Positions 5,925 to 33,763 are shown, counted from the stretch's first letter. The stretch is DNA of 64,000 nucleotides from a bacterium (GCA_037141055.1 JBAXDH010000001.1:9301-73300), one strand, 5' to 3'. Notes: generated by a model not told the origin, from the sequence alone. Numbers and translations: made by a program.

Positions 5925-5974
5925 AAATGCATACATACATAGCTTGCAGATATGAAATTCTTAAAACCATAAAA

Positions 5975-10200: not shown

Positions 10201-11052
10201 TTATTTAACGAAGACGAGGCGCACACTTTCCGTGAGGTCGCTGATCTCTGCAGCTTTCTGCTGCGGGATTTTTTTGCCTGACTCAATGCCGTAGTTGCCC
10301 CAGATCGGTTTAAGTTTGGCGATCTCATCCGCAACCGGCTTCATGTTTTCATCAGCCGCATAGGCTTCAAGGATCGTAAGCAGTTTCATGTGGTTGTCTT
10401 TCTGCCCGGCGATTACGGCCATGATCTTCGTGTTGTCTTTGGCAACTTCACCCAGTGTGGCAGACAGGTAGATGCCTTCGGCAAAAGCACCTGCAGCGAT
10501 GAGCACAGCCACCCTGGTGCGGTTATTGGTTGCCAGGAAATTATTTGTCTGGCTGAAGATTTTGCTGATAAGCCCGATCAGTGAATCCTTGTTGTTGTTG
10601 AATTGCTTTACTTTACCGAGCAGGGTTTGATCGTAAACCCCTGCAATGCCCAGTTCGTCGGCCAGTTTATTGGTGCAGGCCAGAAACTTATTGGTTTCAT
10701 CCGTACGGTTGTAAGTGGCTGAATAGCTCAGGTCGGCACTGTATACGCCAAGGTTGAGCGATTTGCTTATTTCAGTGGAATATTTGCCAACGTTTGCAGG
10801 CGGATTTGTGATGTCGAAAATAAACCCTGCCTTGGCTTTTTCAAGCATGGATGTAACTTCGAAAGGAGTGGGGAAGGAGTTCAAAAGATTCTGTGATTCG
10901 GGGCTCAGGGCAATCTCCTTTTTAATGGTATCGGCAGCAGCGGCATTGGCCTGGCTGTCCTGTTTGGCAGGATTGTTGCAACCGGAAAAGGCGATGAACA
11001 GAAAGAGCGCAACCAGCGCAACGCCGGTTTGGATTTTTGTGAATGCTTTCAT
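10201..11052 (-). CDS. hypothetical lipoprotein
   Basis: 283 aa with lipobox ...FIAFSGCNN. The mature part looks alpha-helical. No family recognised. Confidence 0.5.
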   Translation of the reverse strand: MKAFTKIQTGVALVALFLFIAFSGCNNPAKQDSQANAAAADTIKKEIALSPESQNLLNSFPTPFEVTSMLEKAKAGFIFDITNPPANVGKYSTEISKSLNLGVYSADLSYSATYNRTDETNKFLACTNKLADELGIAGVYDQTLLGKVKQFNNNKDSLIGLISKIFSQTNNFLATNNRTRVAVLIAAGAFAEGIYLSATLGEVAKDNTKIMAVIAGQKDNHMKLLTILEAYAADENMKPVADEIAKLKPIWGNYGIESGKKIPQQKAAEISDLTESVRLVFVK

Positions 11053-11172
11053 AAAGTCGTTTGAAGATTCGTTCGTACTATCGTTATTGAACTATGCGAA
11101 ATTAAGGGATTTTTTTCTAATCAGATCACTTTTTTTTAAGAAACTGTTAAAATTGACAATGGGTTTATTCAA

Positions 11173-12126
11173 TCATCGACGATGATCGATGAGGATCTTC
11201 ATGGTTTCAGGTTTTGAGGCACATTCAAATGCCGCCAGAATGTCCTGAAAGGGAAAAGTCTGCGAAATAAGAGGTTTCGGATCAACGAGCCCCTGGTCCA
11301 AAAGGCTTAAAGCGGGAGCAAAAGGCCCGCACCGGGACCCGGTAATGGTAAATTCGTTGATCACTATCTGGTTCAGGTCCGTTTTTTCCGGATCGGCTAT
11401 CGTGGTTTTGAGGACAAGGGTTCCGCGGGGATAGAGGTGCTCCATGGCAGTTCTGATGCCTGCCGGGTTCCCGGTACAGTCCACGCATATTTCAGCATAT
11501 TCCGATGATCCGAGCGATGCGAGGGGCCTTGCATTCAATTCCATGGCCTCCGCATTTTTCACCCTGGCGATGTTCGTGTCGAAAGTGGTGTAATTGCATC
11601 CGTAAAGGCGGAACACCTGCGAAATGAGGTTCCCGAGTTTGCCGGCTCCGAAGATGAATGCGTTTTGTGAGGGTTTTATGTGAACCTGTTCAAATATTTC
11701 AATTGCCGCAGCCAGCGGTTCCGTGAAAATGGCGGATGCAGGTGCAAGTGTTTTCGGCACAGTATGCAGGTTTTTCTCAGGAAGTACGACATATTCGGCA
11801 AAGACTCCGTCGTGATTCCAGATTCCCAGCACCGACCGGTTCGGGCAATGCGTGGGCCGGCCGGTATTGCACAGGTAACAATCGCCGCAGGGACAGTTGA
11901 TTTCGCCGACGACTATCCTGCCGGTGAGTTCCCGGCCGGGGGTTACCACTTCACCAACAAACTCATGACCGGGGATGCCGTTAAAACCCATGTATCCCTT
12001 GAGAATTTCGAGGTCGGTATTGCAGATTGCCGAATATAAAATCTTTACAAGAACTTCATTTTCTTTTGGTTCAGGGATGGCAATGTCTTTCAGGCATAAT
12101 GTTCCGTCAAAGAAAAGCGCTTTCAT
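11173..12126 (-). CDS. zinc-dependent alcohol/threonine dehydrogenase-family oxidoreductase (MDR)
   Basis: GHEFVGEV catalytic Zn motif, structural Zn loop CGDCYLCNTGRPTHC and a GAGKLG Rossmann motif. The ATG at 12126 was preferred to the TTG at 12144. Confidence 0.85.
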   Translation of the reverse strand: MKALFFDGTLCLKDIAIPEPKENEVLVKILYSAICNTDLEILKGYMGFNGIPGHEFVGEVVTPGRELTGRIVVGEINCPCGDCYLCNTGRPTHCPNRSVLGIWNHDGVFAEYVVLPEKNLHTVPKTLAPASAIFTEPLAAAIEIFEQVHIKPSQNAFIFGAGKLGNLISQVFRLYGCNYTTFDTNIARVKNAEAMELNARPLASLGSSEYAEICVDCTGNPAGIRTAMEHLYPRGTLVLKTTIADPEKTDLNQIVINEFTITGSRCGPFAPALSLLDQGLVDPKPLISQTFPFQDILAAFECASKPETMKILIDHRR

Positions 12127-12207
12127 GAGATAAAATTTAGTCAAAATTATAAAATTAAAGTAATTTTACGGGTAAATTCTCCCTTACTTCAGAGCGCACC
12201 CGGCATT

Positions 12208-13308
12208 ATGCACAAATACTTTCACATTACACACCTAAGCTGGTTCCGTTTATCCCTCTGTTTTTCGGTTCTCATCATTGTTATGGCAGCATGTTCCGGA
12301 GACAAAACGGGGAATATAGACTCGTCTTCCGGCAACTTCGCCATGCAAGACGATTCAGGCACTCATAAACTCCGGAAAGTAAGGCTCATACCCTATTGGG
12401 TCACTTCGGCACAATTTGCAGGGTACTATGTCGGCATCGAGAAAGGGATTTTCCTCAAATACGGAATTGACCTGGAGGTGCTTCCCTTCGACCCGTTCAA
12501 GCCGACACGAAAGGAAATTGAAAGCGGCAAGGCTGATTTTGCGCTCCTGTGGCTTGTGAATGCCATCGAACTCAGGTCGCAGGGGGTCGGCATCGTAAAC
12601 CTTGCCCAGCTCTCATCGCGGTCTTCCCTGATGCTGCTCGCAAAGAAAAGCAGCGGGATCAGGAAGCTGAGCGACATGAACGGAAAAAGGGCCGCAATTT
12701 GGTCGGGGTTCGAATTGCAGCCTCGGGCATTGTTCACGAAATTTAACCTGGATGTAAAAACTGTCCCGATTGGCAGCACCAATACGCTGTTTTTACTCAA
12801 TGGAGTGGATTTAATAAATGCCAACTGGTTTGATGAATATCATTCCATCATCAATAACGGGTATGATTCCAGTGAACTGGTTCCCTTCTTTTTTGCCGAT
12901 TACGGCTTGAATTTCCTTGAGGACGGAATTTATTGCCTTTCTGAAAAAGCCAGGTCCGATCCGGGTTTGTGCCGCGATTTTATCGATGCCGCGCTGGAAA
13001 GCTGGATGTTTGCATTCGACCATCCTGACCTGACGCTGGACATCGTGATCAGGAAAACCAGGAAGGAAAATCGCCCTGTAAACCTGGCGCACCAGAAATG
13101 GATGCTCAACTGCTACCGGGAACTCTATATTCCGAAAGGACGGAGTTCAATAAACACAAGTCTGCTGCCCGGGGATTATGAAAATGTAAGCATGATCATG
13201 CTGGGCAGCAAAATGATTGACAGGATAGTCCCCTACGACAGCTTTTACGCCCCATACAAGTCATTAAAGGTGCAGGAAGAAACTCCCGGAAAAAACGCCC
13301 GCCGATGA
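12208..13308 (+). CDS. NMT1/THI5-like (NitT/TauT-type) substrate-binding lipoprotein
   Basis: Lipobox VMAACSG. The pattern ...PYWVTSAQFAGYYVGIEKGIF.KYGIDLEV.... resembles NMT1-like binding proteins. The gene overlaps the kinase start by 4 nt. Confidence 0.6.
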   Translation: MHKYFHITHLSWFRLSLCFSVLIIVMAACSGDKTGNIDSSSGNFAMQDDSGTHKLRKVRLIPYWVTSAQFAGYYVGIEKGIFLKYGIDLEVLPFDPFKPTRKEIESGKADFALLWLVNAIELRSQGVGIVNLAQLSSRSSLMLLAKKSSGIRKLSDMNGKRAAIWSGFELQPRALFTKFNLDVKTVPIGSTNTLFLLNGVDLINANWFDEYHSIINNGYDSSELVPFFFADYGLNFLEDGIYCLSEKARSDPGLCRDFIDAALESWMFAFDHPDLTLDIVIRKTRKENRPVNLAHQKWMLNCYRELYIPKGRSSINTSLLPGDYENVSMIMLGSKMIDRIVPYDSFYAPYKSLKVQEETPGKNARR

Positions 13309-15425
13309 TGAAAAAGATCTTTTTCCGCAAAGGACTGGCCTACAAGCTGATCATCTCCATTATGATCACGCTGGGCATTATTTTCCTCCTTCTCTTCTCC
13401 TACAACCTGGTAATTACAAGAAAAATAATCGTTAAGAACCTCGAAGCCAACGCCGAAAACCTGACAGGTGCAACGGTTGCAAGGATTGAGAAAGTTCTCA
13501 GCAGCATTCAGAAGATTCCCGATAATTATGCTCCGATTATGGAGCTTCATCTTGATTCGGACAAAGACATGAAGGAACTCCTCTCCCTGATGGTTGCGGG
13601 CAACAAGGAGATTCTCGGCGCCTGCCTTGCCTTCGAGCCGTACTCAAGGAATCCTGCCGAAAGATACTTTTCCTATTACTATTACTGGAAACACGATTCG
13701 CTCTCCTTCATGAGGCTTGGAAACGACCAGTACGACTATTTTACCCTTGATTGGTACCAGATTCCCAAGGAGTTGGGGAAGTCGGTATGGAGTGAGCCCT
13801 ATTATGATGAAGGAGGTGTAGAACAGCTGGTTTCAACCTATTCTGTTCCGCTGTATGACCGGAGAAACAATCAGAAGAAATTTGTCGGAATACTTACCAT
13901 TGATTTGTCGCTTGAGTGGTTTCAGAAAAATGTGAATCAGATCCAGGTATATGAAACGGGTTTTGGGTTTCTGATTTCAAAGAATGGCGTGATCGTGAGC
14001 CATCCGATGAAAGAGTACATCATGAATGAAACCATCTTCAGCATTGCAGATGAACGTATTTCCCCGGGACTGAGAATGGTCGGGAGGGAGATGATAAACG
14101 GCAATTCCGGGTTTAAGGAGATATCATACAACAATGCAAAAAACGGGAAGGCCAGCTGGCTGGCGTATGCTCCTGTTTCGCTGAACGGATGGTCGATCGG
14201 CGTGGTTTTTCCGGTTGATGAGTTTATGGCAGACGCCAACCATCTCAGCCGGGTAATCGCTGCACTGGCTGCGTTCGGTTTTGTGGTGCTCCTCATCCTG
14301 CTCATAGCCATTGCCCGGTCAATCACCAAACCTTTAAGGCAGCTCACGCTCGCATCGGAAAAATTCGCCCAGGGTGAATTCGACGTTGAACTCCCGGAGA
14401 TCAGGTCAAAGGATGAAATCGGACGGTTGAACGGCTCGTTTATCTCGATGCAAAAACAATTGGTGAAAACCATCCATGAACTCAGGGAAGCATCTGAACA
14501 GCTGCTTGATTCGAATGAAAAACTGGCAGAGTACAACAGGACACTCGAGCAGAAGGTGGATGAACGAACGGTCGAGTTAAGGCAGAAACATTCGGAACTG
14601 GATGAGGCGTTCCAGGAACTGAAGGCTGCCCAGTCGCAACTGGTTCAGTCGGAAAAAATGGCATCCCTGGGTCAGCTCACTGCCGGAATCGCACATGAAA
14701 TTAAGAATCCGCTGAATTTTGTCAATAATTTCTCGGAATTATCGGTCGAACTCACCCAGGAGATGCTGGAAGAACTGGGTAAACTTTCCGGCAACCTTGA
14801 TCCGAAGGACATGGATTACCTCACAGGCATCATTACCGATCTGCAGTCCAACGTAAAAAAAATCAACGATCATGGAAAGCGGGCCGACAGCATCATCCGC
14901 GGGATGCTGCTCCACGCGCGGGGCAAATCGGGAGAAAGACAGCCTACCGATCTCAATGCGGTCCTTTCCGAATATGTCAATCTCGGGTATCATGGGATGA
15001 GGGCTTCCGACAACACTTTTAACGTTAAAATTGAAAGTGATTACGATCCCGCGCTTGGAATGGTGACCGTTGTGCCGCAGGATATCAGCCGGGTCTTCCT
15101 CAACATGGTCAACAATGCATTTTATTCCACCGCACAAAAAAAGAAAGAGCTGAACGAAACCTATTTCCCTGTCGTGAAAGTGAGTACCAGGAACCTGGGC
15201 GACAAAGTGGAGATCAGGATCCGCGACAATGGCAAAGGGATGCCCGCGGCTGTTGCAGAAAAGGTTTTCAACCCGTTCTTCACCACCAAGCCCGCCGGCT
15301 CAGGCACGGGCCTCGGCCTTTCGATCAGTTTCGACATCATCGTCCAGCAGCACAGGGGCCAGATTCAGGTCGACAGCGTGGAGGGTGAATATGCAGAATT
15401 TATCATCACACTTCCGAAAATATAA
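13305..15425 (+). CDS. sensor histidine kinase (TM, Cache-like periplasmic domain, TM, HAMP, coiled coil, HisKA, HATPase_c)
   Basis: Cache-like block YDYFTLDWYQ...SEPYYDEGG..LVSTYSVPLY; H-box SEKMASLGQLTAGIAHEIKNPLNF; N-box FLNMVNNAFYS; G-boxes IRDNGKGM and GSGTGLGLSIS. Confidence 0.85.
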   Translation: MMKKIFFRKGLAYKLIISIMITLGIIFLLLFSYNLVITRKIIVKNLEANAENLTGATVARIEKVLSSIQKIPDNYAPIMELHLDSDKDMKELLSLMVAGNKEILGACLAFEPYSRNPAERYFSYYYYWKHDSLSFMRLGNDQYDYFTLDWYQIPKELGKSVWSEPYYDEGGVEQLVSTYSVPLYDRRNNQKKFVGILTIDLSLEWFQKNVNQIQVYETGFGFLISKNGVIVSHPMKEYIMNETIFSIADERISPGLRMVGREMINGNSGFKEISYNNAKNGKASWLAYAPVSLNGWSIGVVFPVDEFMADANHLSRVIAALAAFGFVVLLILLIAIARSITKPLRQLTLASEKFAQGEFDVELPEIRSKDEIGRLNGSFISMQKQLVKTIHELREASEQLLDSNEKLAEYNRTLEQKVDERTVELRQKHSELDEAFQELKAAQSQLVQSEKMASLGQLTAGIAHEIKNPLNFVNNFSELSVELTQEMLEELGKLSGNLDPKDMDYLTGIITDLQSNVKKINDHGKRADSIIRGMLLHARGKSGERQPTDLNAVLSEYVNLGYHGMRASDNTFNVKIESDYDPALGMVTVVPQDISRVFLNMVNNAFYSTAQKKKELNETYFPVVKVSTRNLGDKVEIRIRDNGKGMPAAVAEKVFNPFFTTKPAGSGTGLGLSISFDIIVQQHRGQIQVDSVEGEYAEFIITLPKI

Positions 15426-15430
15426 TGTAA

Positions 15431-16615
15431 ATGACAGAACCCGGTTACAAAAACGTGAAAATCATGGTGGTCGACGATGAAGTCGATCTTGAGCCGTTGA
15501 TCCGCCAGAAGTTCCGCCGCCAGGTCCGTGACGGAGTATACGATTTCGTTTTTGCCCATAACGGGCTTGAAGCACTGACAAAACTCATCGAATACCCGGA
15601 GATCGGGATCATCCTTTCGGATATCAACATGCCGGAAATGGACGGACTCACGCTGCTCATGAAACTGAAGGAGCTCAAGAATCCCGGGCTCAAAACAGTT
15701 ATCGTGTCTGCCTACGGCGATATGGAGAACATCCGGACCGCCATGAACCGCGGCGCTTTTGATTTTCTGACCAAGCCGATCAGTTTTGACGACCTTGAAA
15801 TCACCATCAATAAAACGATGGATGAAATCATGCAGCTTCGCCATTCGATGGAAGAACATGACCAGCTGATTTCGATCCAGCAGGATTTACAAACCGCCCA
15901 TGAAATCCAGCAGGCGATCCTGCCCAAGGTATTTCCCCCGTTCCCGTCGCGCAAGGACTTTGACATTTATGCCGCGATGATTGCGGCCCGTGAGGTCGGT
16001 GGCGATTTTTTCGACTTTTTCATGATCGATAACGACCGGCTCGGGTTTGTGATCGGCGATGTTTCTGGGAAAGGTGTCCCCGCAGCGATATTCATGGCGG
16101 TGAGCCGTACGCTGATCAGGGCGACGGGGCTCAAGGCCATTCCTGCGGCAGAGTGCATGAACTATGTCAACAGCCTGCTGTGCAACGAGAGTGTTTCCTG
16201 CATGTTTGTGACGGTTTTCTACGGCATCCTGAATACAGAAACTGGAGAACTTGAATATGTGAATGCAGGGCATAATCCTCCGTACCTGTTAACCGCCAAC
16301 GGGTTAAAAAAGGTGGCGATGACAGGCGGGACCATCCTGGGCTGCATCGAAGAATTTCAGTATAAATCAAACCGGATCATGCTTGCTCCCGGTGACCGGC
16401 TTTTCCTTTACACCGATGGCGTGACGGAAGCCTTTACCAAAGAAAATGAGGCTTACGGGGACGACAGGCTCGAGGCGTATCTTACGCAGAATAGCGGGAA
16501 TACGATCGAAGAATTGGTGCGGGGCTGCCTGAAAGAGGTAAACGACCATTCGCTTGGGATCCCCCAGTCCGATGATATCACGCTGCTCTCGATCCATTTC
16601 AGCGGAAAACATTAA
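15431..16615 (+). CDS. response regulator: receiver domain fused to a PP2C/SpoIIE serine phosphatase (RsbU-like)
   Basis: Receiver: VDDE...ILSDINMPEMDG...KP. PP2C: AREVGGDFFDF, GDVSGKGVPAAIFMA, LYTDGVTEA, SDDITLL. Confidence 0.9.
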   Translation: MTEPGYKNVKIMVVDDEVDLEPLIRQKFRRQVRDGVYDFVFAHNGLEALTKLIEYPEIGIILSDINMPEMDGLTLLMKLKELKNPGLKTVIVSAYGDMENIRTAMNRGAFDFLTKPISFDDLEITINKTMDEIMQLRHSMEEHDQLISIQQDLQTAHEIQQAILPKVFPPFPSRKDFDIYAAMIAAREVGGDFFDFFMIDNDRLGFVIGDVSGKGVPAAIFMAVSRTLIRATGLKAIPAAECMNYVNSLLCNESVSCMFVTVFYGILNTETGELEYVNAGHNPPYLLTANGLKKVAMTGGTILGCIEEFQYKSNRIMLAPGDRLFLYTDGVTEAFTKENEAYGDDRLEAYLTQNSGNTIEELVRGCLKEVNDHSLGIPQSDDITLLSIHFSGKH

Positions 16616-16635
16616 GAAAGTGTCATTTCAGAGCA

Positions 16636-17847
16636 ATGAAAGTAATTGTTAAACAGTCGGATGCTTTTGATGTTCTGGAGGTTCAGGGCAGGATCGACGG
16701 GCTTACCGCAACGGAATTAAAGCTTGCAGCCGAGCAGTGCATGAATGGAGGTGCGCGTCAGCTCGTTTTCGATTGTTCGGCGGTTACTTACCTCAGCAGT
16801 GCAGGGTTGCGCGTCTTCATGCAAACCTGGAAATCGCTCAGCATGATCGGGGGAAAAATGGTTCTGATGGCAGTGCCTACTGCGGTTATGGATGTGTTCA
16901 GGATCAGCGGCATGGATAATTTCATGATCTTTGTTGACGACTTATCTGTTCTTGAAGCTGCTCTGCCGGTTGTCGAGCCGGAAGATGCCGCAGAGGTGCT
17001 GAATTTTAAGGAGTTTACTTTTGAGATGAAATCTTCCATTGGTTCAGTCGGCACATTGCGCAGGCTTGGTTCTCCCGCTCACCTCGAACAGGCGGCTTTC
17101 GTACAGGAGGACGTCGTCCCCGTGCCCCAGTGCGAGATCACATACGGGGCGGGCCTTGCTGTGCTGGGGAACGATTTTGAGGATTACGGGAATCTTTTCG
17201 GAGAGGCAGCCGTGATAAATCACCGTTTTTTTTCATACCCGGCTGTCAAAAGGCCGTTCGTCGATTTTTCCGGGTTCAGCAGTGAAAATCCCACCACCCT
17301 GAATTTCCTGTACGGATTCGGTTTCAGCGGCAATTTTTCGAAGGTATTGAAAATGTCGGGCCAGGCAGAAGCCGCAACTGTCGAAGAAATACTCGGGGCT
17401 GCAGGAAATGTGGCCGGAGGGAATTTGTTCGGGGTGGTGATCCTGGCAGTCAGCGGCGGAATTTTCGGCATGCACCTGCGCAAATCACCCATCCGGGAAA
17501 ATAACCCTTCGCAAACCATGATTCTCGATGGCAACCGTTTTGCAGAATGGATGAATTTTTCCTTCGATGGCGAAGATATTCACAAGATTATCGTTGCAAC
17601 CGGCATCGCCGTTCGCGATCCGGACCTTCTCCCGGAGGGCATGAAAAAGTTTTTTCCTGTAAACTCAGCATGTCACCTGCATGCGGTTGTATTCGAAAAC
17701 GGACTGCTGAGCCTTCAGATCAAAGAATTTGAATCGGAACTCGAGCGGGTGATGAAGGAGTTTGAAGCACAAAAGGTGGTCCACCTGCTGCCGTCATCAC
17801 GGCTGCAGAGTGGCTTTATCGGCATCATAAACCTGGAGGCAAACTGA
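16636..17847 (+). CDS. STAS-domain protein (anti-sigma-factor-antagonist fold) with a ~290-aa unassigned C-terminal domain
   Basis: Residues 1-~105 are SpoIIAA/RsbV-like (LEVQGRIDG..A.EL...., FDCSAVTYLSSAGLRVF). The remaining ~290 aa match nothing I recognise. Confidence 0.8.
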   Translation: MKVIVKQSDAFDVLEVQGRIDGLTATELKLAAEQCMNGGARQLVFDCSAVTYLSSAGLRVFMQTWKSLSMIGGKMVLMAVPTAVMDVFRISGMDNFMIFVDDLSVLEAALPVVEPEDAAEVLNFKEFTFEMKSSIGSVGTLRRLGSPAHLEQAAFVQEDVVPVPQCEITYGAGLAVLGNDFEDYGNLFGEAAVINHRFFSYPAVKRPFVDFSGFSSENPTTLNFLYGFGFSGNFSKVLKMSGQAEAATVEEILGAAGNVAGGNLFGVVILAVSGGIFGMHLRKSPIRENNPSQTMILDGNRFAEWMNFSFDGEDIHKIIVATGIAVRDPDLLPEGMKKFFPVNSACHLHAVVFENGLLSLQIKEFESELERVMKEFEAQKVVHLLPSSRLQSGFIGIINLEAN

Positions 17848-19799
17848 TGGAATTGTGGATCGGAGCGGTGAACCTTGGCATACTGTACGCCTTCATGGCC
17901 ATCGGCACGTATATTACCTATAAACTCTACTCTTTTCCCGACATCACCATCGACGGTACTTTTACCACCGGGGCGGCCGTTGCATCCATCCTGGTTGTGG
18001 ATGGCTGGAACCCGATGCTCGTCCTGCCGGTTGCATTCCTGGTAGGTTCCCTCGCCGGGTTTGTCACCGGTTTTATTCACACGCGGTTTAAAATTGAAGG
18101 ATTGCTTGCCGGAATCCTGGTCATGACGGGGCTCTATTCGGTGAACCTCCACATCATGGGAAAATCCAACATCCCGTTGATGAACAGCAGCACCTTCGTT
18201 TCAATACTTTCATCGATGAATCCCGGGATGAACCCGGAACTGTGGAGTTGCATCTTCCTGGTGATGCTCATGCTGGTCTTCTGGATGGCGGTTTCACTGT
18301 TTCTGAATACCGACTACGGGCTCACCATGCGCGCCACCGGGAACAATCCGGTGATGGTAGCCGCCCAGGGTGTATCAGTAAACCGGATGAAGATTTTCGG
18401 GATTGCCCTGGCCAACGGATTTGTAGGGATTTCCGGGGCGCTGGTTGCACAATACCAGGGTTTTGCCGACATCGGGATGGGGACAGGCTCCATCATTTTC
18501 AGCCTCGCCTCCGTGATCATCGGGGAGGCGATACTTCGCCACCGCTCGATGTATGTCCAGATCCTCGGCGTGATCCTCGGCTCAATCATTTTCAGGCTGG
18601 CAGTTGCACTTGCGCTAAATTTCGGAATGAACCCCAATGACCTCAAGCTCATCACTGCATTCTTTGTGCTGATGACCCTGGTCGCCTCCGGATCATTTGC
18701 AACCAGGTCAAACGGCGTATTTAAATATCTTCATGAGGTTTACCGGAGAAACCGGAGAAGTTTTGTGATCATTTTCCTGTGTGTGGTGGTCTTCCTGGCC
18801 GGGTACTCGATCCGCAAACAGAAACAGGCGGTAACCGAAGACGTGAAGATGGTGAAGATCGGGATCATCATGGCCAACAACAGCGATATCGTTTCAAAAA
18901 CACGCGACGGCATCATGAGTGAACTGGGGAAACTTGGCTATGTAAGCGGAAAAAACTGCATCATCCTGGAGCAGAATGCAGAGGGTGACATCCCGACAAA
19001 CCAGACCATCATCGACCATTACCTGAATGAGAAGGTCGATATTTTTGTTCCTGTATCGACCGCTTCCACGCAGGCAGCTCTCAATAAAATCAAAGACCGG
19101 CCGATCATATTTGCCACGGTTGCAAATCCGTTTGTGATCGGCGCAGGCACCACTCCGGTCGACCACCCGGCCAACGTCACAGGAGTTTACGGTTCTTCAC
19201 CAATAAAGGAGCTGCTGGGAGTTTTCAGGAAAATGCATTCCGGCAAGGTGAAGATCGGAACCATCTATAACCCGGCTTATCCCAATACGGTATCCAACCT
19301 GAAAGATCTGAAAAAGGCGCTGCAGGACGATCCCGATATCTCGCTGGAGGAGGTTACGGTGTCGAATTCAAATGATGTTTACCAGGCAGCCCTGGCACTG
19401 TCGTCAAAGAAAATTGCAGCCTTTGTCCTGATCAATGATCTTACGGTCTTCAATTCTTTCGAATCCGTGGTCAGGATTTCAAAAAACAACAGGATCCCGA
19501 TTTTTACCTGCGACGCGGAAAGACTGAAGGACGGGGCCCTGGTTGTTTACGGATTTGAATATTTTGTGAGTGGCATGCAGGCTGCGCATCTCATCGACCG
19601 CATCCATCGCGGGGAAAGCCCTGCGCATATCCCGTTCGAGAAATATAAAATAGTTACGTACGGCATTAATTTTGACGTTGCCAGGGAACTTGGTGTGATC
19701 ATCCCTTCATCGGTTCAATCGGAAGCGGATGCATCGGTGAAGAACGGCATTTTGACCAAACAGCCGTTTGTGCTGCCGGAAGAAAAAAAAGTTCAATAA
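17847..19799 (+). CDS. ABC transporter permease (COG4120-type) fused to a COG2984-type substrate-binding domain
   Basis: The N-terminal ~290 aa are a multi-TM branched-chain-type permease. An extra TM follows (FVIIFLCVVVFLAGYSI). Then comes a ~320-aa ABC_sub_bind-like domain (KIGIIMANNS..., FVPVSTASTQAAL, IFATVANP, IPIFTCD). Confidence 0.8.
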   Translation: MELWIGAVNLGILYAFMAIGTYITYKLYSFPDITIDGTFTTGAAVASILVVDGWNPMLVLPVAFLVGSLAGFVTGFIHTRFKIEGLLAGILVMTGLYSVNLHIMGKSNIPLMNSSTFVSILSSMNPGMNPELWSCIFLVMLMLVFWMAVSLFLNTDYGLTMRATGNNPVMVAAQGVSVNRMKIFGIALANGFVGISGALVAQYQGFADIGMGTGSIIFSLASVIIGEAILRHRSMYVQILGVILGSIIFRLAVALALNFGMNPNDLKLITAFFVLMTLVASGSFATRSNGVFKYLHEVYRRNRRSFVIIFLCVVVFLAGYSIRKQKQAVTEDVKMVKIGIIMANNSDIVSKTRDGIMSELGKLGYVSGKNCIILEQNAEGDIPTNQTIIDHYLNEKVDIFVPVSTASTQAALNKIKDRPIIFATVANPFVIGAGTTPVDHPANVTGVYGSSPIKELLGVFRKMHSGKVKIGTIYNPAYPNTVSNLKDLKKALQDDPDISLEEVTVSNSNDVYQAALALSSKKIAAFVLINDLTVFNSFESVVRISKNNRIPIFTCDAERLKDGALVVYGFEYFVSGMQAAHLIDRIHRGESPAHIPFEKYKIVTYGINFDVARELGVIIPSSVQSEADASVKNGILTKQPFVLPEEKKVQ

Positions 19800-19853
19800 G
19801 CAAATATGCGTGACATGTTTCATCAAACCACCAATATGCTTTAAGCGGCCCTT

Positions 19854-20666
19854 ATGATTGCAATAACAAATGTGACTAAAACCTTTAATCCCGGAAGCAT
19901 CGACAAGGTTGAAGCCCTTAAGATGATCAGCCTTGACGTTAAGGAACATGAATTCGTTACAGTTATCGGGACCAACGGTTCCGGAAAATCGACCCTGCTG
20001 AATATGATTGCAGGCAACATCCTGCCCGACAGCGGAACCATTTCGATCGACGGGAGGGATGTTACGAAGAAGCAGGATTTTCAGCGGGCGAAGTACATCG
20101 CCCGGGTTTTTCAGAATCCGTATTCAGGTACCGCCCCCGGAATGACGATTGCAGAAAACCTGCTGATGGCGTGGTTTCGGGGCAAACACCGCTATCCCCT
20201 CACCAGTTTGAAAGGGAACCTGAAAATCCGGTTCAGGGAACAGCTTGCCTCCCTGGACATGCAGCTCGAAGACCGGCTTGAAAATCTTATGGGAAGCCTT
20301 TCAGGCGGGCAGCGCCAGGCAGTTACCCTGTTGATGGCCGTGCTGCAGACACCAGGGGTGTTGCTCCTTGATGAACATACGGCAGCGCTTGATCCTAAAA
20401 CAGCCGGCCAGGTTATTCAATTAACCAGTAAATTTGTAGCGGCAAACAGGCTTACTGTCATCCTGGTCACGCATTCCATGCAACAGGCACTCGCCATGGG
20501 TTCCAGGATTATCATGATGCACAAGGGCAGGATTATTGAGGATTTCAGCGGGGAAGAGAAGAAACGTTTGACGGCGGAAGATCTGTTGATTAAGTTTGAA
20601 GATATCAGGAAACTTGAAAAACTTACGCCTGAACTGATTGAAAACATGAAAAATCAATATATCTGA
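19854..20666 (+). CDS. ABC transporter ATP-binding protein (COG1101-type)
   Basis: Walker A GTNGSGKST, Q-loop, signature LSGGQRQA, Walker B LLLDEHTAALD and H-loop VTHSM. Confidence 0.9.
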   Translation: MIAITNVTKTFNPGSIDKVEALKMISLDVKEHEFVTVIGTNGSGKSTLLNMIAGNILPDSGTISIDGRDVTKKQDFQRAKYIARVFQNPYSGTAPGMTIAENLLMAWFRGKHRYPLTSLKGNLKIRFREQLASLDMQLEDRLENLMGSLSGGQRQAVTLLMAVLQTPGVLLLDEHTAALDPKTAGQVIQLTSKFVAANRLTVILVTHSMQQALAMGSRIIMMHKGRIIEDFSGEEKKRLTAEDLLIKFEDIRKLEKLTPELIENMKNQYI

Positions 20667-21913
20667 TGAAAAAATTTCAATTCATTTTTTTCCTGATCCT
20701 TTTCCTGGCCGGGAGTATCGCTTGCAACAAGCAGAAGGTAAGCTATATGCCTTACGGGGGACAGGAAATCCGCGTGGGGGTACTGCTGCCCCTTACCGGA
20801 ACGGGATATTCATCCGGCCAGGGCATGAAAGCATCCCTGGAACTTGCCTTGCAGGATATCAATGGATATTTTGCCGAGGACGGTATCCAGGAAAAGCTCG
20901 TTCTCAGCATTGTTGATACAAAAACAGATACCGCAGAGGCGTTGAAACAGCTGAAAATCTTTTTTGAGAATGGGATCCGCCTGGTCGTCGGGCCATACAG
21001 CAGTGCAGAACTGGCTCACATTAAGGCATTTGCCGATTCCCACGGGATATTGGTCGTAAGTCCGTCGAGCGTAGCTGTATCCCTGGCAATCCCGGACGAC
21101 AACATCTTCCGGTTTGTCACTTCGGATGTAATCCAGGGCAGGGCCATGAGCAAAATGTTATCCGAAGATAATATTAAAGTGATTTTGCCGCTGATCAGGG
21201 ATGATGTGTGGGGCAACGACCTGGTTGCAGCCACCAGCAATGATTTTATCAAAGGAGGAGGGTCGGTGCAGCCTCCCGTCAGATACGCACCGGGTACCGC
21301 CGATTTTTCCGGTGTGCTCGAACAGCTTGATGTTGAACTGGCATCCGAATTGACGCATCACAATCCCAATGAAGTGGCCGTATACATGCTTTCATTTGCA
21401 GAAGGAACGCAGATTATGGCACAAGCCAGACAACATGCGCACCTCAACAATGTATACTGGTACGGTGGTTCTGCATTTGCACAAAACGCCTCCATGCTGG
21501 GCGACACAAACGCGGCGTTGTTTGCATACACGCACGGGCTGCCATGTCCGCTGTTCGGGCTGGATGATGGCGCCGTGAACAAATGGCAGCCCCTGAAGGA
21601 CCGGATTCTGTCAGTCATCGGCCGTAATCCCGATGTTTATGCCTTTAATGCCTACGACGCTTTATGGGTGCTGGTTCGGGCATACCGGGCCGGCGGTTAT
21701 GACCTGTCTATAGAGCCTTTAAAAAAGATTTTTGTCAACGAAGCGGATAATTATTTCGGAACGTCGGGAAATACGCAACTGGACGTAAATGGCGACAGGG
21801 CTTACGGGAACTATGATTTCTGGGCCGTGAAAACGGATTCGGCGGGCTATTGCTGGAAGCGCGTTGCCCGGTATAATTCGCTTCACGGTACGATTACCAG
21901 GCTGGTTGAGTAA
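20666..21913 (+). CDS. type-1 periplasmic binding protein (LIV-binding-like) lipoprotein
   Basis: Lipobox LAGSIAC. IRVGVLLPLTGTGYSSGQG...ALELALQDIN and VVGPYSSAE are typical of Peripla_BP_6-like receptors. Confidence 0.7.
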   Translation: MKKFQFIFFLILFLAGSIACNKQKVSYMPYGGQEIRVGVLLPLTGTGYSSGQGMKASLELALQDINGYFAEDGIQEKLVLSIVDTKTDTAEALKQLKIFFENGIRLVVGPYSSAELAHIKAFADSHGILVVSPSSVAVSLAIPDDNIFRFVTSDVIQGRAMSKMLSEDNIKVILPLIRDDVWGNDLVAATSNDFIKGGGSVQPPVRYAPGTADFSGVLEQLDVELASELTHHNPNEVAVYMLSFAEGTQIMAQARQHAHLNNVYWYGGSAFAQNASMLGDTNAALFAYTHGLPCPLFGLDDGAVNKWQPLKDRILSVIGRNPDVYAFNAYDALWVLVRAYRAGGYDLSIEPLKKIFVNEADNYFGTSGNTQLDVNGDRAYGNYDFWAVKTDSAGYCWKRVARYNSLHGTITRLVE

Positions 21914-21933
21914 CGAAGCAAGCCCGGTAAACG

Positions 21934-22410
21934 CTAAAGCCGCTTCACAAAAAACACTTTGCCGTCACCCTCCTTGTAGAAATCGTTGATTTGTGCTTCC
22001 ATCGTGTAGCCGGTCCGGTCGTAGAAATGTCTCGTCGGTGTGTATTTTTCAAGAGTTGAAGTCTCGGCGATCACGATGCGACCGCCCATCTCTTTGATGA
22101 TCCTGTGCGTTTCGCCGATCAGTTCGTTGCCGATTCCGCGACCGCGGTAGTCATTATGCGTTGCGATCCAGTAAAGGTCAAAACTGCCTTCCGTGGCGGC
22201 AACAGGGCCGAAGCAGCTGTAGGAAACGGTTTTCCCGTCGAGTTCGGCAAAAAGGAAATGGTAATCGCTCCGATCGCCCATGTCAAGTCCGTCCTGAACA
22301 AGTTCCACCGCCACGGGAACCTCGAAATCGTAAAAGAAACCGGAGGAAACGATGATATCCCTTACCGTTTCAATATCCTGTGGAATTACTTCCGTGCGAA
22401 AAGTCAGCAT
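21934..22410 (-). CDS. GNAT-family N-acetyltransferase
   Basis: 158 aa with the acetyl-CoA pyrophosphate-binding motif YRGRGIGNEL followed by ...YDRTGY.... Confidence 0.8.
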   Translation of the reverse strand: MLTFRTEVIPQDIETVRDIIVSSGFFYDFEVPVAVELVQDGLDMGDRSDYHFLFAELDGKTVSYSCFGPVAATEGSFDLYWIATHNDYRGRGIGNELIGETHRIIKEMGGRIVIAETSTLEKYTPTRHFYDRTGYTMEAQINDFYKEGDGKVFFVKRL

Positions 22411-22434
22411 GTTTGGTTGTTCTAATATGAGTAA

Positions 22435-23406
22435 TTACCGGGTTGCATCTTCCAGTATCCTTGCAATGACCTCCTCAAAGTCAAGACCTTTCTTTTTTGA
22501 GGCAGCCATGAACCCGCCCGATTCGGAAAGGCATGGGTTGAGGTTGATATCGATCACGAGCGGAACGGAAGCCTCAGTTACCCTGAAGTCGATCCGCACA
22601 TAACCTTTAAGCCCCATTTCAATCCAGCATTTTTTGCAGATGGCGGTCAGTTCGGCCTTCAGCGGTCCATCGCCTTTGCCAGGCCTGAAAGTGCGGCGGG
22701 TGTGCGAATATTCAAAAGATTTATCATCCCATTTCGACTTGTAGCCCATCATCCTGGGTTTTCCTTCAGGATAATCGTGAAAGGTCATTTCTGCAAGAGG
22801 CAGGACTTCCGGCCCGTCGGGGCTGTAAAGGATGGAAATGTTAAACTCCCGGCCTTCGATGAATTCTTCAATGAAATAGTGTTCCCGGCTTTTCCCGCCG
22901 AGTTTTTTAATAAAACCGGCATCCGAACCCATGAAGACGCAATCTTCATCCAGTTCAAGCGACCCCTCTTCCCAGATCGGTTTCACAATATACTTTGTAT
23001 CCGGCCGGAGTTTGTGACATTCATCGATGGAAAAACCCATGGGAGTCTTGACACCGATGGCATTCAGCTCTTTTTTGGCAAGTAATTTATTGGAACACAG
23101 GAACATGGGTACAAGCGGTGAACCGGTATAGGGGACTCGCACATAATTCAGCACTGAATTGGCCAGGAATGTGAATTCGCCTTTATTCCCGATCGTTTCG
23201 GCAAGGTTGAAAATAATATCGGGTTTCATCGACTGAATACGGCCGATGGCTGTTTTTAAATTCAGGTCTATCTGGAGGTACTTAACCTTGTATTTCAGAT
23301 TCGACAATGCAACCGTTACGAGATTGACCTGCTCAATTACATCAGCTTCATCATCTTTCGGGGTCTTCGATAATTTATTGTAAAGTATCAGAACAGTCTT
23401 GCTCAT
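22435..23406 (-). CDS. ATP-grasp ligase (D-Ala-D-Ala-ligase-like), paralogue 2
   Basis: ATP-grasp blocks KYIVKPIWEEGS, IEEFIEGREFNISIL and YVRIDFRV.....PLVIDINLNPCLS. The ATG at 23406 (MSKTVLILYN) was chosen because the 23505 ORF start would overlap the upstream gene by 83 nt. Confidence 0.75.
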   Translation of the reverse strand: MSKTVLILYNKLSKTPKDDEADVIEQVNLVTVALSNLKYKVKYLQIDLNLKTAIGRIQSMKPDIIFNLAETIGNKGEFTFLANSVLNYVRVPYTGSPLVPMFLCSNKLLAKKELNAIGVKTPMGFSIDECHKLRPDTKYIVKPIWEEGSLELDEDCVFMGSDAGFIKKLGGKSREHYFIEEFIEGREFNISILYSPDGPEVLPLAEMTFHDYPEGKPRMMGYKSKWDDKSFEYSHTRRTFRPGKGDGPLKAELTAICKKCWIEMGLKGYVRIDFRVTEASVPLVIDINLNPCLSESGGFMAASKKKGLDFEEVIARILEDATR

Positions 23407-23422
23407 TGCGTGGAGTTGGGTT

Positions 23423-24403
23423 TTATGACAGTCCGGTTCGTTTCCTTGCCGACAGCATGATTTCACCGATGATTCGTTCAAAATCATATCCATGTTTATA
23501 GGCAAGGATGGGCAGGTCGGAATGAACCCTGTCTAGGCCGGCAAGCGGATTTACTTCTATAAAATTCGGGGTTCCGAACCGGTCGACCCGGATGTCGACT
23601 CTTCCCCCGTCGCGGCACCCGAGCACCTGCCAGGTTTTTAAAGCCAGGTCGGCGCATTTGTCGGAAATTTCCTGCTCAGGGACCTTGTATTCAACTACAT
23701 CCAGGTAGTCGGATTTTGTCTGGTAGGAATAAATGTTTTTCGTCTCTTCCGACCGGTAAAGGATTTCCATCGTGCCAACAGCATAAGCCCCGCTGCCGGT
23801 TCCAAGAACTCCTGTCGTAAATTCACGGCCGGGCAGGAATTCCTCAACCAGGAGCCCCGACGGATACCGGGATAACAGGTCACTGCAGATGCTGTTTAGT
23901 TCTTCAGGGCTGTTTACCTTCGACAGGGCGTTGATCCCTTTCCCGGTACCCTCAGCGTTTGGTTTTACGAACAGCGGATACGGAAGATCGACATCTTTGC
24001 AATCTTCTATTTTCTCAATGATGACAAATCCGGGTGTGGGAATTCCGTAATCCCTGACAACCCGCTTGGTCAGTCCTTTGTGCAGCGTCAGCGACAGTAC
24101 GAGCGGATCGGAAAAAGTATACGGGATCTGAAAAACATCGAGCAGGGCCGGAACCTGGGCTTCACGGCCGATGCCGTGCATGCCTTCGCAGATATTGAAA
24201 ACCATGTCCCAGCGATCGCCGGCGGCAAGCCGTTTAACCAGGTGACGAACATGTCCGATCCTGTCCGTTTGATATCCAAGGGTTTGCAGCGCCAGTTCGA
24301 TGGCCTCAACAGTGCTTTCACGGTCAAATTCCGCTGTCTCCTCTTCACTGTAGCCCTCCTTCCGGTAATCCGACCGCAAATCGTACGTTAATCCGATGTT
24401 CAT
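23423..24403 (-). CDS. ATP-grasp ligase (D-Ala-D-Ala-ligase family), paralogue 1
   Basis: LFVKPNAEGTGKGI, VEEFLPGREFTTGVLG and GGRVDIRVDRFGTPNFIEVNPLAGL give the Ddl-like ATP-grasp architecture. Confidence 0.8.
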   Translation of the reverse strand: MNIGLTYDLRSDYRKEGYSEEETAEFDRESTVEAIELALQTLGYQTDRIGHVRHLVKRLAAGDRWDMVFNICEGMHGIGREAQVPALLDVFQIPYTFSDPLVLSLTLHKGLTKRVVRDYGIPTPGFVIIEKIEDCKDVDLPYPLFVKPNAEGTGKGINALSKVNSPEELNSICSDLLSRYPSGLLVEEFLPGREFTTGVLGTGSGAYAVGTMEILYRSEETKNIYSYQTKSDYLDVVEYKVPEQEISDKCADLALKTWQVLGCRDGGRVDIRVDRFGTPNFIEVNPLAGLDRVHSDLPILAYKHGYDFERIIGEIMLSARKRTGLS

Positions 24404-24406
24404 GGG

Positions 24407-30388: not shown

Positions 30389-30391
30389 AGG

Positions 30392-33381: not shown

Positions 33382-33434
33382 GGTATCAGTTTTTAAATGT
33401 GGATGTGCATGCAGGAGCACATGGACCTTTTTTT

Positions 33435-33746: not shown

Positions 33747-33763
33747 ACAAAACAAGTTTAGAT

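What the first reader, a model, noticed from the sequence alone, without database searches (positions are those of the whole stretch)
12208..21913. Partner-switching input module (Cache kinase, receiver-PP2C, STAS) hard-wired to an ABC importer instead of to an anti-sigma kinase and sigma factor
Seven co-directional genes have junctions of -4, +5, +20, -1, +54 and -1 nt, so they almost certainly form one transcript. In order they are an NMT1-like binding lipoprotein, a Cache-HAMP histidine kinase, a receiver-PP2C phosphatase, a STAS protein, a permease-binding-domain fusion, an ABC ATPase and a LIV-type binding lipoprotein. Receiver-PP2C plus STAS is the input half of the known partner-switching cascades (RsbU/RsbV, SpoIIE/SpoIIAA, HsbR/HsbA). 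The obligatory output half is missing: there is no RsbW/SpoIIAB-type serine kinase/anti-sigma and no sigma factor. A complete ABC importer occupies that position instead. The STAS domain keeps the phosphorylatable serine context (YLSSAGL, Ser54/55, nt 16795-16800). STAS proteins are known to bind and regulate an ABC ATPase (MlaB-MlaF) and are the regulatory domains of SulP transporters. My inference is that a phosphorylation-switched STAS protein gates nutrient import post-translationally under control of a ligand-sensing two-component pair. I do not know of a described example of this arrangement.
Basis: partly seen in the sequence, partly recalled or inferred. Interest (0 to 1): 0.7.

Follow-up and report, generated by a model that had tools for sequence, protein, structure and literature searches.

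The report
STAS-domain regulator wired to ABC importer
A seven-gene operon joins a ligand-sensing kinase and a phosphatase to an uncharacterised two-domain STAS protein that sits beside the same type of ABC nutrient importer in all 29 loci examined, so a phosphorylation switch that normally controls sigma factors may here act on a transporter.

Summary
In detail: seven co-directional genes with the stated junctions and domain contents.

Residues 1-105 are an RsbV/SpoIIAA-type STAS domain. Residues 116-403 are a conserved domain with no Pfam or PDB sequence match. Its predicted fold resembles Zn-dependent acetolactate decarboxylase and C11orf54, and it carries a near-invariant E, D, HxH, H set. 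The family has about 800 representatives, almost all with this architecture.

In all 29 loci examined, across several phyla, this gene lies directly before or inside a PF04392/BPD_transp_2/ATPase importer operon. A histidine kinase (absent in one locus) plus REC-PP2C lies directly upstream in all 7 Bacteroidota loci.

There is no RsbW-like kinase in the 64-kb window. However, 7 of 29 relatives carry an RsbW-like kinase plus a second short STAS next to the ABC genes, sometimes in the same operon. A sigma factor is nearby in only one.

The link between a partner-switching module and an ABC importer is therefore real and recurrent. The "kinase-less" state is seen in the Bacteroidota loci and in most Thermodesulfobacteriota loci. 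Gating of transport by phospho-STAS is plausible by the MlaB-MlaF precedent but untested. An enzyme role or a transporter-as-sensor role remain open. I rate it a new variant of known kinds, of fairly high interest.

The parts
12208..13308 (+). NMT1/SsuA-like solute-binding lipoprotein (366 aa, lipobox MAAC|S). It is a likely co-sensor for the kinase.
   Evidence: Pfam NMT1 at 3.5e-25 and sequence. An orthologue (E 4e-83) sits next to a dCache-HAMP-PP2C in the Thermodesulfobacteriota locus L087, and orthologues precede the HK in L002 and L004.
13305..15425 (+). Membrane histidine kinase: TM, double-Cache sensor, TM, HAMP, HisKA (H in AGIAHEIKNPL), HATPase_c (706 aa).
   Evidence: The sensor part is closely similar (E 2e-104) to the dCache-HAMP of a PP2C fusion in L087, and (E 5e-110) to the dCache-HAMP of an HK in L085.
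15431..16615 (+). Response-regulator receiver fused to a PP2C/SpoIIE phosphatase (394 aa).
   Evidence: Response_reg 2e-21 and SpoIIE 7e-51. Receiver residues are intact (D15, D16, D64, S93, K115), as are the PP2C metal motifs GGDFFD, GDVSGKG, YTDGVTE and SDDITLL. It is 76-80% identical and directly upstream of STAS-long in L001, L002, L004 and L013. The same arrangement is seen in L084 and L086.
16636..16950 (+). STAS domain of STAS-long (aa 1-105), RsbV/SpoIIAA type. Ser54/Ser55 lie at nt 16795-16800.
   Evidence: STAS 3e-15 and TIGR00377 above its cut-off. Foldseek hits RsbV 6m36 and SpoIIAA 1th8 with TM 0.84-0.90. G18, R19, D21, S54 and S55 are kept in at least 218 of 224 family members.
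16981..17844 (+). C-terminal domain of STAS-long (aa 116-403). It is uncharacterised and has an acetolactate-decarboxylase/C11orf54-like predicted fold. Near-invariant residues: E190 (17203-17205), D210 (17263-17265), H347 (17674-17676), H349 (17680-17682), H383 (17782-17784).
   Evidence: There is no Pfam or PDB sequence hit. The AF2 model has pLDDT 92 and pTM 0.88. Foldseek hits 1xv2, 5yho, 4bt2, 5xne and 1xcr at E 6e-7 to 6e-5. The profile finds 792 representatives, nearly all 400-430 aa with this domain at residues ~115-405.
17847..19799 (+). ABC permease (BPD_transp_2, aa 1-~290), an extra TM helix (aa ~302-326) and a periplasmic PF04392 substrate-binding domain (aa 337-629). Its start overlaps the STAS-long stop codon (TGATG).
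   Evidence: The SBP domain matches PDB 3lkv, 6hni and 3lft. The NCBIfam TrpX match is 168.6 bits, below the 390 cut-off. This gene follows STAS-long in 29/29 loci.
19854..20666 (+). ABC ATPase (270 aa) with a conserved C-terminal extension (aa ~236-270).
   Evidence: ABC_tran 1e-30. It is 50-75% identical in the related loci where it was found. K236, D243, L245, F248, R252, L257 and Y269 are invariant in 14 paired sequences.
20666..21913 (+). Peripla_BP_6 (LIV-type) binding lipoprotein (415 aa, lipobox SIAC|N).
   Evidence: It is absent from the other Bacteroidota loci. A close homologue (E 1.6e-80) lies inside the partner-switching gene cluster of the Ignavibacteriales locus L085.

Best explanation
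STAS-long is a dedicated cytoplasmic accessory subunit of a PF04392/BPD_transp_2-type ABC importer, whose substrate is probably an amino acid or a related small molecule. It consists of an RsbV-type STAS domain plus a metal-site domain with a decarboxylase-like fold.

**Proposed mechanism in this Bacteroidota operon**
1. The double-Cache kinase, probably helped by the NMT1-like lipoprotein, senses an external ligand.
2. The kinase phosphorylates the receiver domain of the PP2C phosphatase.
3. The phosphatase removes phosphate from Ser54 of STAS-long.
4. The phospho-state of Ser54 decides whether the STAS domain docks on the transporter, most likely on the ATPase as MlaB does on MlaF. This changes transporter assembly or activity after translation.
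5. The C-terminal domain adds a second, intracellular input by binding or converting a small molecule at its E/D/His3 site.
6. The Ser kinase is not encoded in the window. It is expected elsewhere in the genome, because relatives encode an RsbW-like kinase in or beside the same operon.

**Shown:** gene order, domain content, family-wide conservation of the Ser and the His/Glu/Asp set, and strict STAS-long/ABC linkage. Also shown is the recurrent co-location with PP2C (12/29 loci), with an RsbW-like kinase plus short STAS (7/29), and with the same NMT1 + dCache sensor pair in another phylum.

**Inferred:** phosphorylation of Ser54, the PP2C-to-STAS-long substrate relation, binding to the ATPase, and the direction of the effect on transport.
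For: - **Strict adjacency.** STAS-long is adjacent to the permease and ATPase in 29/29 loci (Bacteroidota, Ignavibacteriales, Kapabacteria, Thermodesulfobacteriota, Vulcanimicrobiota, Verrucomicrobiota, proteobacteria). In one subgroup it lies between the SBP and permease genes.
- **Translational coupling.** There is a 1-nt stop/start overlap with the permease gene here and in L084, L085 and L086.
- **Bacteroidota input.** REC-PP2C lies directly upstream in 7/7 Bacteroidota loci, with different HKs.
- **Thermodesulfobacteriota version (L087).** It holds NMT1 (E 4e-83), dCache-HAMP fused directly to PP2C (E 2e-104), an RsbW-like kinase and a short STAS, convergent with the STAS-long ABC operon.
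- **Kinase in the operon.** In L034 and L020 the short STAS, RsbW-like kinase, SBP, STAS-long, permease and ATPase appear to form one operon. In L030 and L063 a kinase-STAS fusion starts 4 nt after the ATPase gene.
- **Residue conservation.** The STAS domain is of the kinase-substrate type (TIGR00377; RsbV/SpoIIAA folds), and S54/S55 are kept in 223/224 members.
- **Active phosphatase.** The PP2C catalytic motifs are intact.
- **Precedent.** MlaB (STAS) binds the ABC ATPase MlaF, and the phosphomimetic T52E at the equivalent position weakens binding (PMC7367683).
- **Sigma factors.** A sigma factor is present in only 1 of the 28 related loci scanned.
Against: - No Ser kinase is present in the 64-kb window, so there is no demonstrated source of phospho-Ser54 in this organism.
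- 16 of 29 loci have neither a PP2C nor an RsbW-like kinase within 10 kb. Phospho-control may therefore be optional, or the invariant Ser may serve binding rather than phosphorylation.
- The strongly conserved E/D/His3 set looks like a catalytic metal centre, which fits an enzyme at least as well as a regulator.
- All relatives are uncultured MAGs, and there are no expression or phosphoproteome data.
Confidence: 0.45

Rival explanations
1. STAS-long is mainly an enzyme. Its C-terminal domain would be a Zn-dependent decarboxylase or hydrolase-like catalyst that converts the imported compound as it enters the cell. The STAS domain would only tether or phospho-regulate that enzyme. Gene linkage would reflect metabolic coupling rather than control of the transporter.
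For: - The predicted fold matches alpha-acetolactate decarboxylases and human C11orf54. Both are Zn enzymes that decarboxylate beta-keto acids through an HxH...H triad (PMC12337341).
- E190, D210, H347, H349 and H383 are kept in at least 220 of 224 members.
- A GxG...GE motif lines up with the ALDC GIG...DGE motif.
Against: - Profile-profile comparison with an ALDC alignment is not significant (probability 1.3%), and there is no Pfam or PDB sequence hit.
- The spacing of the third His differs from ALDC and C11orf54 (34 residues against 10-11), and superposition of the residues could not be checked.
- A catabolic enzyme would not need an invariant kinase-substrate-type STAS domain.
- It would also not need to sit between SBP and permease genes together with an RsbW-like kinase.
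Confidence: 0.2
2. The transporter is the sensor and not the target. STAS-long would report transport activity or cytoplasmic substrate level to an RsbW-like kinase, as stressosome STAS proteins hold and release RsbT. The final output would be transcriptional or lie elsewhere. In the window, the HK and PP2C would reset this relay.
For: - Seven loci carry an RsbW-like kinase and a second, RsbV-like STAS beside STAS-long. Two STAS proteins would then compete for one kinase.
- L085 has an ECF sigma gene directly after the ATPase gene.
- Systems with two STAS proteins and one kinase are known in Chlamydia (PMC11619594).
Against: - A sigma factor is nearby in only 1 of 29 loci, and it is an ECF type, which is not a usual RsbW target.
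- 22 of 29 loci have no kinase nearby to receive the signal.
- The window's only sigma is a standard ECF/zf-HC2 pair 8 kb away and on the other strand.
Confidence: 0.2
3. The kinase and REC-PP2C pair acts on an unrelated phosphoprotein, and its position upstream of STAS-long in Bacteroidota is inherited synteny without functional meaning.
For: - The neighbourhood on both sides is syntenic among the Bacteroidota loci (acetyltransferase, ATP-grasp, LAM, PspC/LiaF), so conservation of order alone is weak evidence within this clade.
Against: - PP2C genes of independent architecture (dCache-HAMP-PP2C, an N-terminally extended PP2C, REC-PP2C on the other strand) recur next to STAS-long in Thermodesulfobacteriota, Verrucomicrobiota and Ignavibacteriales.
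- The HK in front of REC-PP2C varies among Bacteroidota loci, while the PP2C/STAS-long junction (about 4 to 30 nt) does not.
Confidence: 0.08

Closest known systems
MlaB-MlaF (STAS subunit of the MlaFEDB ABC transporter, E. coli; PMC7367683)
   Same: A STAS protein is encoded with an ABC transporter. It keeps a Ser/Thr at the position that is phosphorylated in SpoIIAA. In MlaB that residue lies in the ATPase interface, and a phosphomimetic weakens binding. Both ATPases carry a conserved C-terminal extension.
   Different: MlaB is a minimal ~100-aa STAS with no second domain. No kinase or phosphatase is known for it. The transporter is an MCE/MlaE lipid system, not a BPD_transp_2 importer with binding proteins. 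Binding of STAS-long to its ATPase is not shown.
RsbK-RsbY-RsbV-RsbW-sigmaB of Bacillus cereus (PMC4574943) and other partner-switching systems with receiver-PP2C inputs (HsbR/HsbA; SypE/SypA, PMC10120452)
   Same: A sensor histidine kinase controls a receiver-PP2C phosphatase that acts on a STAS protein with a phosphorylatable Ser.
   Different: Those systems include an RsbW-type kinase (separate or fused) and a defined output such as a sigma factor, a diguanylate cyclase or biofilm genes. Here no kinase and no such output is encoded locally. The STAS protein is a two-domain fusion tied to an ABC importer.
Chlamydia RsbU/RsbV1/RsbV2/RsbW (PMC11619594)
   Same: It has a membrane PP2C with a periplasmic sensor domain, two STAS proteins and one RsbW-like kinase. 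This matches the content of the related loci L087 and L085.
   Different: The chlamydial system is thought to act on a sigma factor and has no ABC transporter partner. The window itself lacks the kinase and the second STAS.
Alpha-acetolactate decarboxylase (PF03306) and human C11orf54/PTD012 (DUF1907; PMC12337341)
   Same: The predicted fold of residues ~120-403 matches. Conserved Glu and HxH...H motifs occur in the same order along the chain.
   Different: There is no significant sequence or profile similarity. The spacing of the third His differs. The domain is ~50 residues larger and is always fused to STAS. No activity is known.
TrpXYZ-type ABC importers (PF04392 SBP, BPD_transp_2 permease, ABC ATPase; S. 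suis TrpX, PMC9382623)
   Same: The three transporter components belong to the same families.
   Different: The match is below the NCBIfam TrpX threshold. The binding domain is fused to the permease. From my own recollection (not checked in the paper), the S. suis operon has no STAS partner and is controlled by a T-box RNA. No Rfam family is present anywhere in the window.

Membership tests
Partner-switching system (RsbU/RsbV/RsbW type) | PP2C/PPM phosphatase with intact metal-binding motifs | tested here: met
   SpoIIE 7e-51. Motifs GGDFFD, GDVSGKG, YTDGVTE and SDDITLL are present.
Partner-switching system (RsbU/RsbV/RsbW type) | STAS antagonist with the conserved phosphorylatable Ser | tested here: met
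   TIGR00377 scores 65 bits against a cut-off of 53.45. YLSSAGL holds S54/S55, which are kept in 223/224 relatives. The fold matches RsbV/SpoIIAA. Actual phosphorylation was not tested.
Partner-switching system (RsbU/RsbV/RsbW type) | RsbW/SpoIIAB-type Ser kinase (HATPase_c_2) | tested here: not met
   None is present in the 64-kb window (HMM best E = 1; Pfam scans). One is present next to STAS-long in 7 of 29 related loci. The rest of the genome could not be searched.
Partner-switching system (RsbU/RsbV/RsbW type) | A target (classically a sigma factor) that the kinase sequesters | tested here: not met
   No group-3 sigma factor is present. Only an ECF/zf-HC2 pair lies at 29939-30973. A sigma factor is nearby in 1 of 29 loci.
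MlaB-type STAS accessory subunit of an ABC transporter | Encoded in the transporter operon | tested here: met
   It is adjacent in 29/29 loci, with an overlapping stop/start codon here.
MlaB-type STAS accessory subunit of an ABC transporter | Minimal single-domain STAS, MCE/MlaE-type transporter | tested here: not met
   The protein is a 403-aa two-domain protein with a full RsbV-type STAS. The permease is BPD_transp_2.
MlaB-type STAS accessory subunit of an ABC transporter | STAS binds the nucleotide-binding subunit | not testable with these tools
Alpha-acetolactate decarboxylase / DUF1907 superfamily | Sequence-profile match to PF03306 or to solved members | tested here: not met
   There is no Pfam hit at E <= 10 for 20 members and no PDB sequence hit. 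hhalign against a 26-sequence ALDC alignment gave probability 1.3%.
Alpha-acetolactate decarboxylase / DUF1907 superfamily | Shared fold | tested here: met
   The test is at the level of a predicted model only. The model has pLDDT 92. Foldseek hits 1xv2 at E 6e-7 with TM 0.63 on the target, and also 5yho, 4bt2, 5xne and 1xcr.
Alpha-acetolactate decarboxylase / DUF1907 superfamily | Zn site of three His (HxH...H) plus a catalytic Glu | tested here: inconclusive
   E190, H347, H349 and H383 are near-invariant and occur in the same order.
TrpXYZ-type ABC importer (PF04392 / BPD_transp_2 / ABC_tran) | All three component families are present | tested here: met
   The SBP domain matches 3lkv, 6hni and 3lft.
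TrpXYZ-type ABC importer (PF04392 / BPD_transp_2 / ABC_tran) | Orthology to TrpX (NCBIfam NF041285 cut-off) | tested here: not met
   The score is 168.6 bits against a cut-off of 390. The substrate is unknown.

The most novel reading that the evidence does not exclude
STAS-long proteins define a widespread, undescribed class of phospho-switchable, metabolite- or metal-binding regulatory subunits of ABC importers. In this reading the terminal partner of a partner-switching cascade is a transporter rather than a sigma factor. An external ligand sensed by a Cache kinase or Cache-PP2C, together with an internal ligand sensed by the decarboxylase-like domain, would then gate uptake within seconds.
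Probability: 0.3. Interest if true: 0.8.

Novelty: new variant of a known kind. Interest (0 to 1): 0.66.

Why it matters
How ABC importers are controlled after translation is known for only a few cases. The MlaFB study explicitly left open whether phosphorylation of a STAS subunit can regulate an ABC transporter.

This finding offers a natural system to test that question. A kinase-substrate-type STAS domain, its phosphatase and, in relatives, its kinase are genetically tied to one importer. The family has about 800 representative sequences across several phyla and no annotation beyond 'STAS domain protein'.

The finding also adds a new domain to the STAS repertoire, with a decarboxylase-like fold and a conserved putative metal site. 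It extends partner switching to a likely non-transcriptional output in anaerobic, mostly uncultured lineages.

Tried and rejected
- I aligned STAS-long + GS linker + ATPase chimeras as a paired alignment of 14 loci (A4). No interface evidence could be obtained.
- **Genome scan alignment.** The first alignment (A1, 41 sequences) was too diverse for the genome scan. A 15-sequence alignment worked.
- **Sequence searches with the C-terminal domain.** A PDB sequence search at E <= 10 and Pfam at E <= 10 found nothing.
- **hhalign against ALDC.** I ran it against one ALDC sequence and against a 26-sequence ALDC alignment. Neither was significant.
- **Promoter and terminator scan of 11000-23000.** Counts were at or below shuffled expectation. 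The scan is also not suited to Bacteroidota promoters.
- **Rfam scan of the whole window.** It gave no match, so there is no riboswitch or T-box.
- **Literature searches.** I searched for a described STAS/partner-switch + ABC importer arrangement and for PF04392/COG4120. Only the Mla and TrpX work turned up.
- **The nearby ECF sigma/anti-sigma pair as a possible output.** I rejected it. It is a standard zf-HC2 pair on the other strand, and no sigma gene was found in the other Bacteroidota loci.
Full report
**Observation**

The seven ORFs, their strand and their junctions (-4, +5, +20, -1, +54, -1 nt) are as described. The STAS-long stop and the permease start share one base (TGATG).
- an NMT1-like binding protein;
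- a dCache-HAMP-HisKA-HATPase_c kinase;
- a receiver-PP2C;
- a STAS protein;
- a BPD_transp_2 permease fused to a PF04392 binding domain;
- an ABC ATPase;
- a Peripla_BP_6 binding protein.

Both flanking binding proteins have lipoprotein signal sequences. The receiver and PP2C catalytic residues are intact. Ser54/Ser55 lie at nt 16795-16800.

The window comes from a 177-kb MAG contig (GCA_964630165.1). Its other genes are typical of Bacteroidota, for example SusC/SusD-like and DUF5686.

The 'STAS protein' is 403 aa. Only residues 1-105 are STAS. The STAS domain scores above the NCBIfam anti-sigma-antagonist cut-off. Its predicted structure superposes on RsbV and SpoIIAA from their kinase complexes with TM 0.84-0.90.

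Residues 116-403 have no Pfam match and no sequence match in the PDB, even at E = 10. They are nonetheless strongly conserved. An AlphaFold2 model built on 41 homologues is confident (pLDDT 92, pTM 0.88).

Foldseek places this domain with alpha-acetolactate decarboxylases (1xv2, 5yho, 4bt2, 5xne) and human PTD012/C11orf54 (1xcr), at E 6e-7 to 6e-5. Those enzymes are Zn-dependent beta-keto-acid decarboxylases with an HxH...H zinc triad (PMC12337341).

In 224 full-length family members, E190, D210, H347, H349 and H383 are kept in at least 220, and S54/S55 in 223.

Profile-profile comparison with an ALDC alignment is not significant (probability 1.3%). The third His is spaced differently, and I could not inspect model coordinates. 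The domain is therefore 'ALDC-like by predicted fold, with a probable metal site'. It is not a demonstrated member of that family.

A profile of this domain finds 792 representative proteins (50%-identity clusters). Almost all are 400-430 aa with the domain at residues ~115-405, so the STAS + C-domain architecture is fixed.

**Gene neighbourhoods**

I examined 22 full-length genome loci from the GTDB scan, six more places from the assembly index and the window itself.

- **ABC linkage.** In all 29 loci, STAS-long is followed on the same strand by the permease and then the ATPase. In most loci the permease is fused to one to three PF04392 domains. The lineages include Bacteroidota, Ignavibacteriales, Kapabacteria, Smithella, Syntrophobacter, Syntrophorhabdus and other Thermodesulfobacteriota. 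They also include Vulcanimicrobiota, Candidatus Magnetocorallium, Verrucomicrobiota and proteobacteria.
- **Divergent subgroup.** In L020, L030, L034 and L063 (~23% identity) the gene sits between separate SBP genes and the permease gene, inside the transporter operon. This is strong evidence that STAS-long is a component or dedicated partner of the importer.
- **Peripla_BP_6.** The last gene of the window operon is not conserved in the other Bacteroidota loci. It has a close homologue in the Ignavibacteriales cluster.

**Phospho-signalling genes**

| Group | Loci | Arrangement |
|---|---|---|
| Bacteroidota | window, L001, L002, L004, L013, L084, L086 (7/7) | REC-PP2C directly upstream of STAS-long. 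Preceded by the dCache kinase plus NMT1 protein (window, L002, L004) or by a 290-aa soluble kinase (L001, L013, L086). L084 has no kinase directly upstream. No RsbW-like kinase within 10 kb. |
| Thermodesulfobacteriota L087 | 1 | The STAS-long ABC operon is convergent with an operon holding a short STAS, an NMT1 protein (E 4e-83 to the window's) and a dCache-HAMP sensor fused directly to PP2C (E 2e-104 to the window kinase's sensor). The last gene is an RsbW-like kinase. |
| Ignavibacteriales L085 | 1 | One co-directional cluster: dCache kinase, REC, REC-PP2C, RsbW-like kinase, short STAS, Peripla_BP_6, further sensors, STAS-long, the ABC genes and an ECF sigma. |
| Proteobacterial L034, L020 | 2 | Short STAS, RsbW-like kinase, SBP, STAS-long, permease and ATPase form one tightly packed operon. 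|
| Verrucomicrobial L030, L063 | 2 | A kinase-STAS fusion starts 4 nt after the ATPase gene, and a PP2C gene converges on it. |

Totals over the 29 loci:
- PP2C within 10 kb: 12/29.
- RsbW-like kinase, always with a second STAS: 7/29.
- Sigma factor within 10 kb: 1/29.
- Neither a PP2C nor an RsbW-like kinase: 16 loci, mostly Thermodesulfobacteriota.

**The window itself**

The window has no RsbW-like kinase (best E = 1 with an HMM built from the relatives' kinases). Pfam scans of most larger ORFs showed no Ser/Thr kinase. The only sigma factor is an ordinary ECF/zf-HC2 pair 8 kb away on the other strand. The rest of the genome could not be searched.

**Interpretation**

That idea is that the input side of a partner-switching system is tied to an ABC importer instead of a sigma factor. 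The claim that the kinase half is absent holds for the window and the other Bacteroidota loci, but not for 7 of the 29 loci.

The most economical model has these steps:
1. STAS-long is a cytoplasmic accessory subunit of the importer.
2. The phospho-state of its STAS domain is set by an RsbW-like kinase and a sensor-controlled PP2C.
3. That phospho-state decides whether it engages the transporter.
4. Its metal-site domain contributes an intracellular ligand or catalytic input.

The only structural precedent is MlaB-MlaF. There the residue equivalent to Ser54 lies in the STAS-ATPase interface, and a phosphomimetic weakens binding. The authors found no other STAS-ABC pair in the PDB and left phospho-regulation open (PMC7367683). 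The ATPase here has a conserved C-terminal extension. This recalls MlaF's tail, but I did not test whether it is specific to STAS-long-linked transporters.

Two rivals remain serious:
- The conserved E/D/His3 set may mean that STAS-long is chiefly an enzyme acting on the imported compound.
- Loci with two STAS proteins and one kinase fit a relay in which the transporter-bound STAS-long is a sensor. It would hold or release the kinase, as the stressosome does.

Substrate identity is unknown. The binding domain is related to PF04392 proteins such as TrpX (PMC9382623) and PDB 3lkv, 6hni and 3lft, but scores below the TrpX threshold.

**Novelty**

Full-text searches found no description of a STAS or partner-switching module coupled to a binding-protein-dependent ABC importer, and none of a STAS/decarboxylase-like fusion. 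Partner switching with non-sigma outputs is known (SypE/SypA, PMC10120452; HsbR/HsbA, from my own knowledge), and so is a STAS subunit on an ABC transporter (MlaB). I therefore rate this a new variant of known kinds, resting on a new and sizeable protein family.

**Limits**
- All relatives are MAGs.
- No interaction, phosphorylation, metal binding or transport has been measured.
- The complex prediction that would test the key step was not available.

Noticed in passing
window 21934-25678 (-): A GNAT acetyltransferase, two ATP-grasp (D-Ala-D-Ala-ligase-like) genes and a radical-SAM lysine-2,3-aminomutase-like gene converge on the operon. They keep this position in all Bacteroidota loci (L001, L002, L004, L013, L084, L086). 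This could be a pathway for a beta-lysine-derived compound. A functional link to the importer is unknown.
   Followed up: partly
L034 3262-8146; L020 8109-12967; L030 8129-15241; L063 6200-13298: In proteobacterial and verrucomicrobial relatives the RsbW-like kinase and a short STAS are in the same operon as STAS-long and the ABC genes. In some they form a kinase-STAS fusion that starts 4 nt after the ATPase gene. No sigma gene is nearby.
   Followed up: partly
window 20559-20663 (ATPase aa 236-270): The ATPase has a conserved C-terminal extension beyond the canonical nucleotide-binding domain. K236, D243, L245, F248, R252, L257 and Y269 are invariant in 14 loci. It recalls the MlaF tail that contacts MlaB. 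Whether it is specific to STAS-long-linked ATPases was not tested.
   Followed up: no
window 29939-30973 (-): An ECF sigma factor (Sigma70_r2/r4_2) sits with a zf-HC2 anti-sigma gene directly downstream. It is an ordinary pair, and no sigma gene was found in the other STAS-long loci apart from L085.
   Followed up: yes
window 32881-35707 (-): DsrE_2-like, DsrC-like, DUF1641 and pyridine-nucleotide-disulphide-oxidoreductase genes lie in a row. This looks like a sulfur-relay cluster.
   Followed up: no
window 51141-54583 (+): Two subunits of a 2-oxoacid:ferredoxin oxidoreductase (POR_N/TPP_C and POR gamma-like, resembling indolepyruvate oxidoreductase) are followed by a class I/II aminotransferase. 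This is an aromatic or branched amino-acid fermentation module. It would fit an amino-acid importer but lies 30 kb away.
   Followed up: no
window 7042-10107 (-): A 1021-aa fused ABC_tran + ABC2_membrane protein is conserved next to the operon in L002 and L004. A Bmp-family (PF02608) binding lipoprotein lies at 5927-7012 (+).
   Followed up: no
all loci: STAS-long evolves faster than its neighbours. Window against L001: STAS 51%, C-domain 48%, PP2C 80%, permease 75%, ATPase 68% identity. The number of PF04392 domains fused to the permease varies from 0 to 3 between lineages.
   Followed up: no
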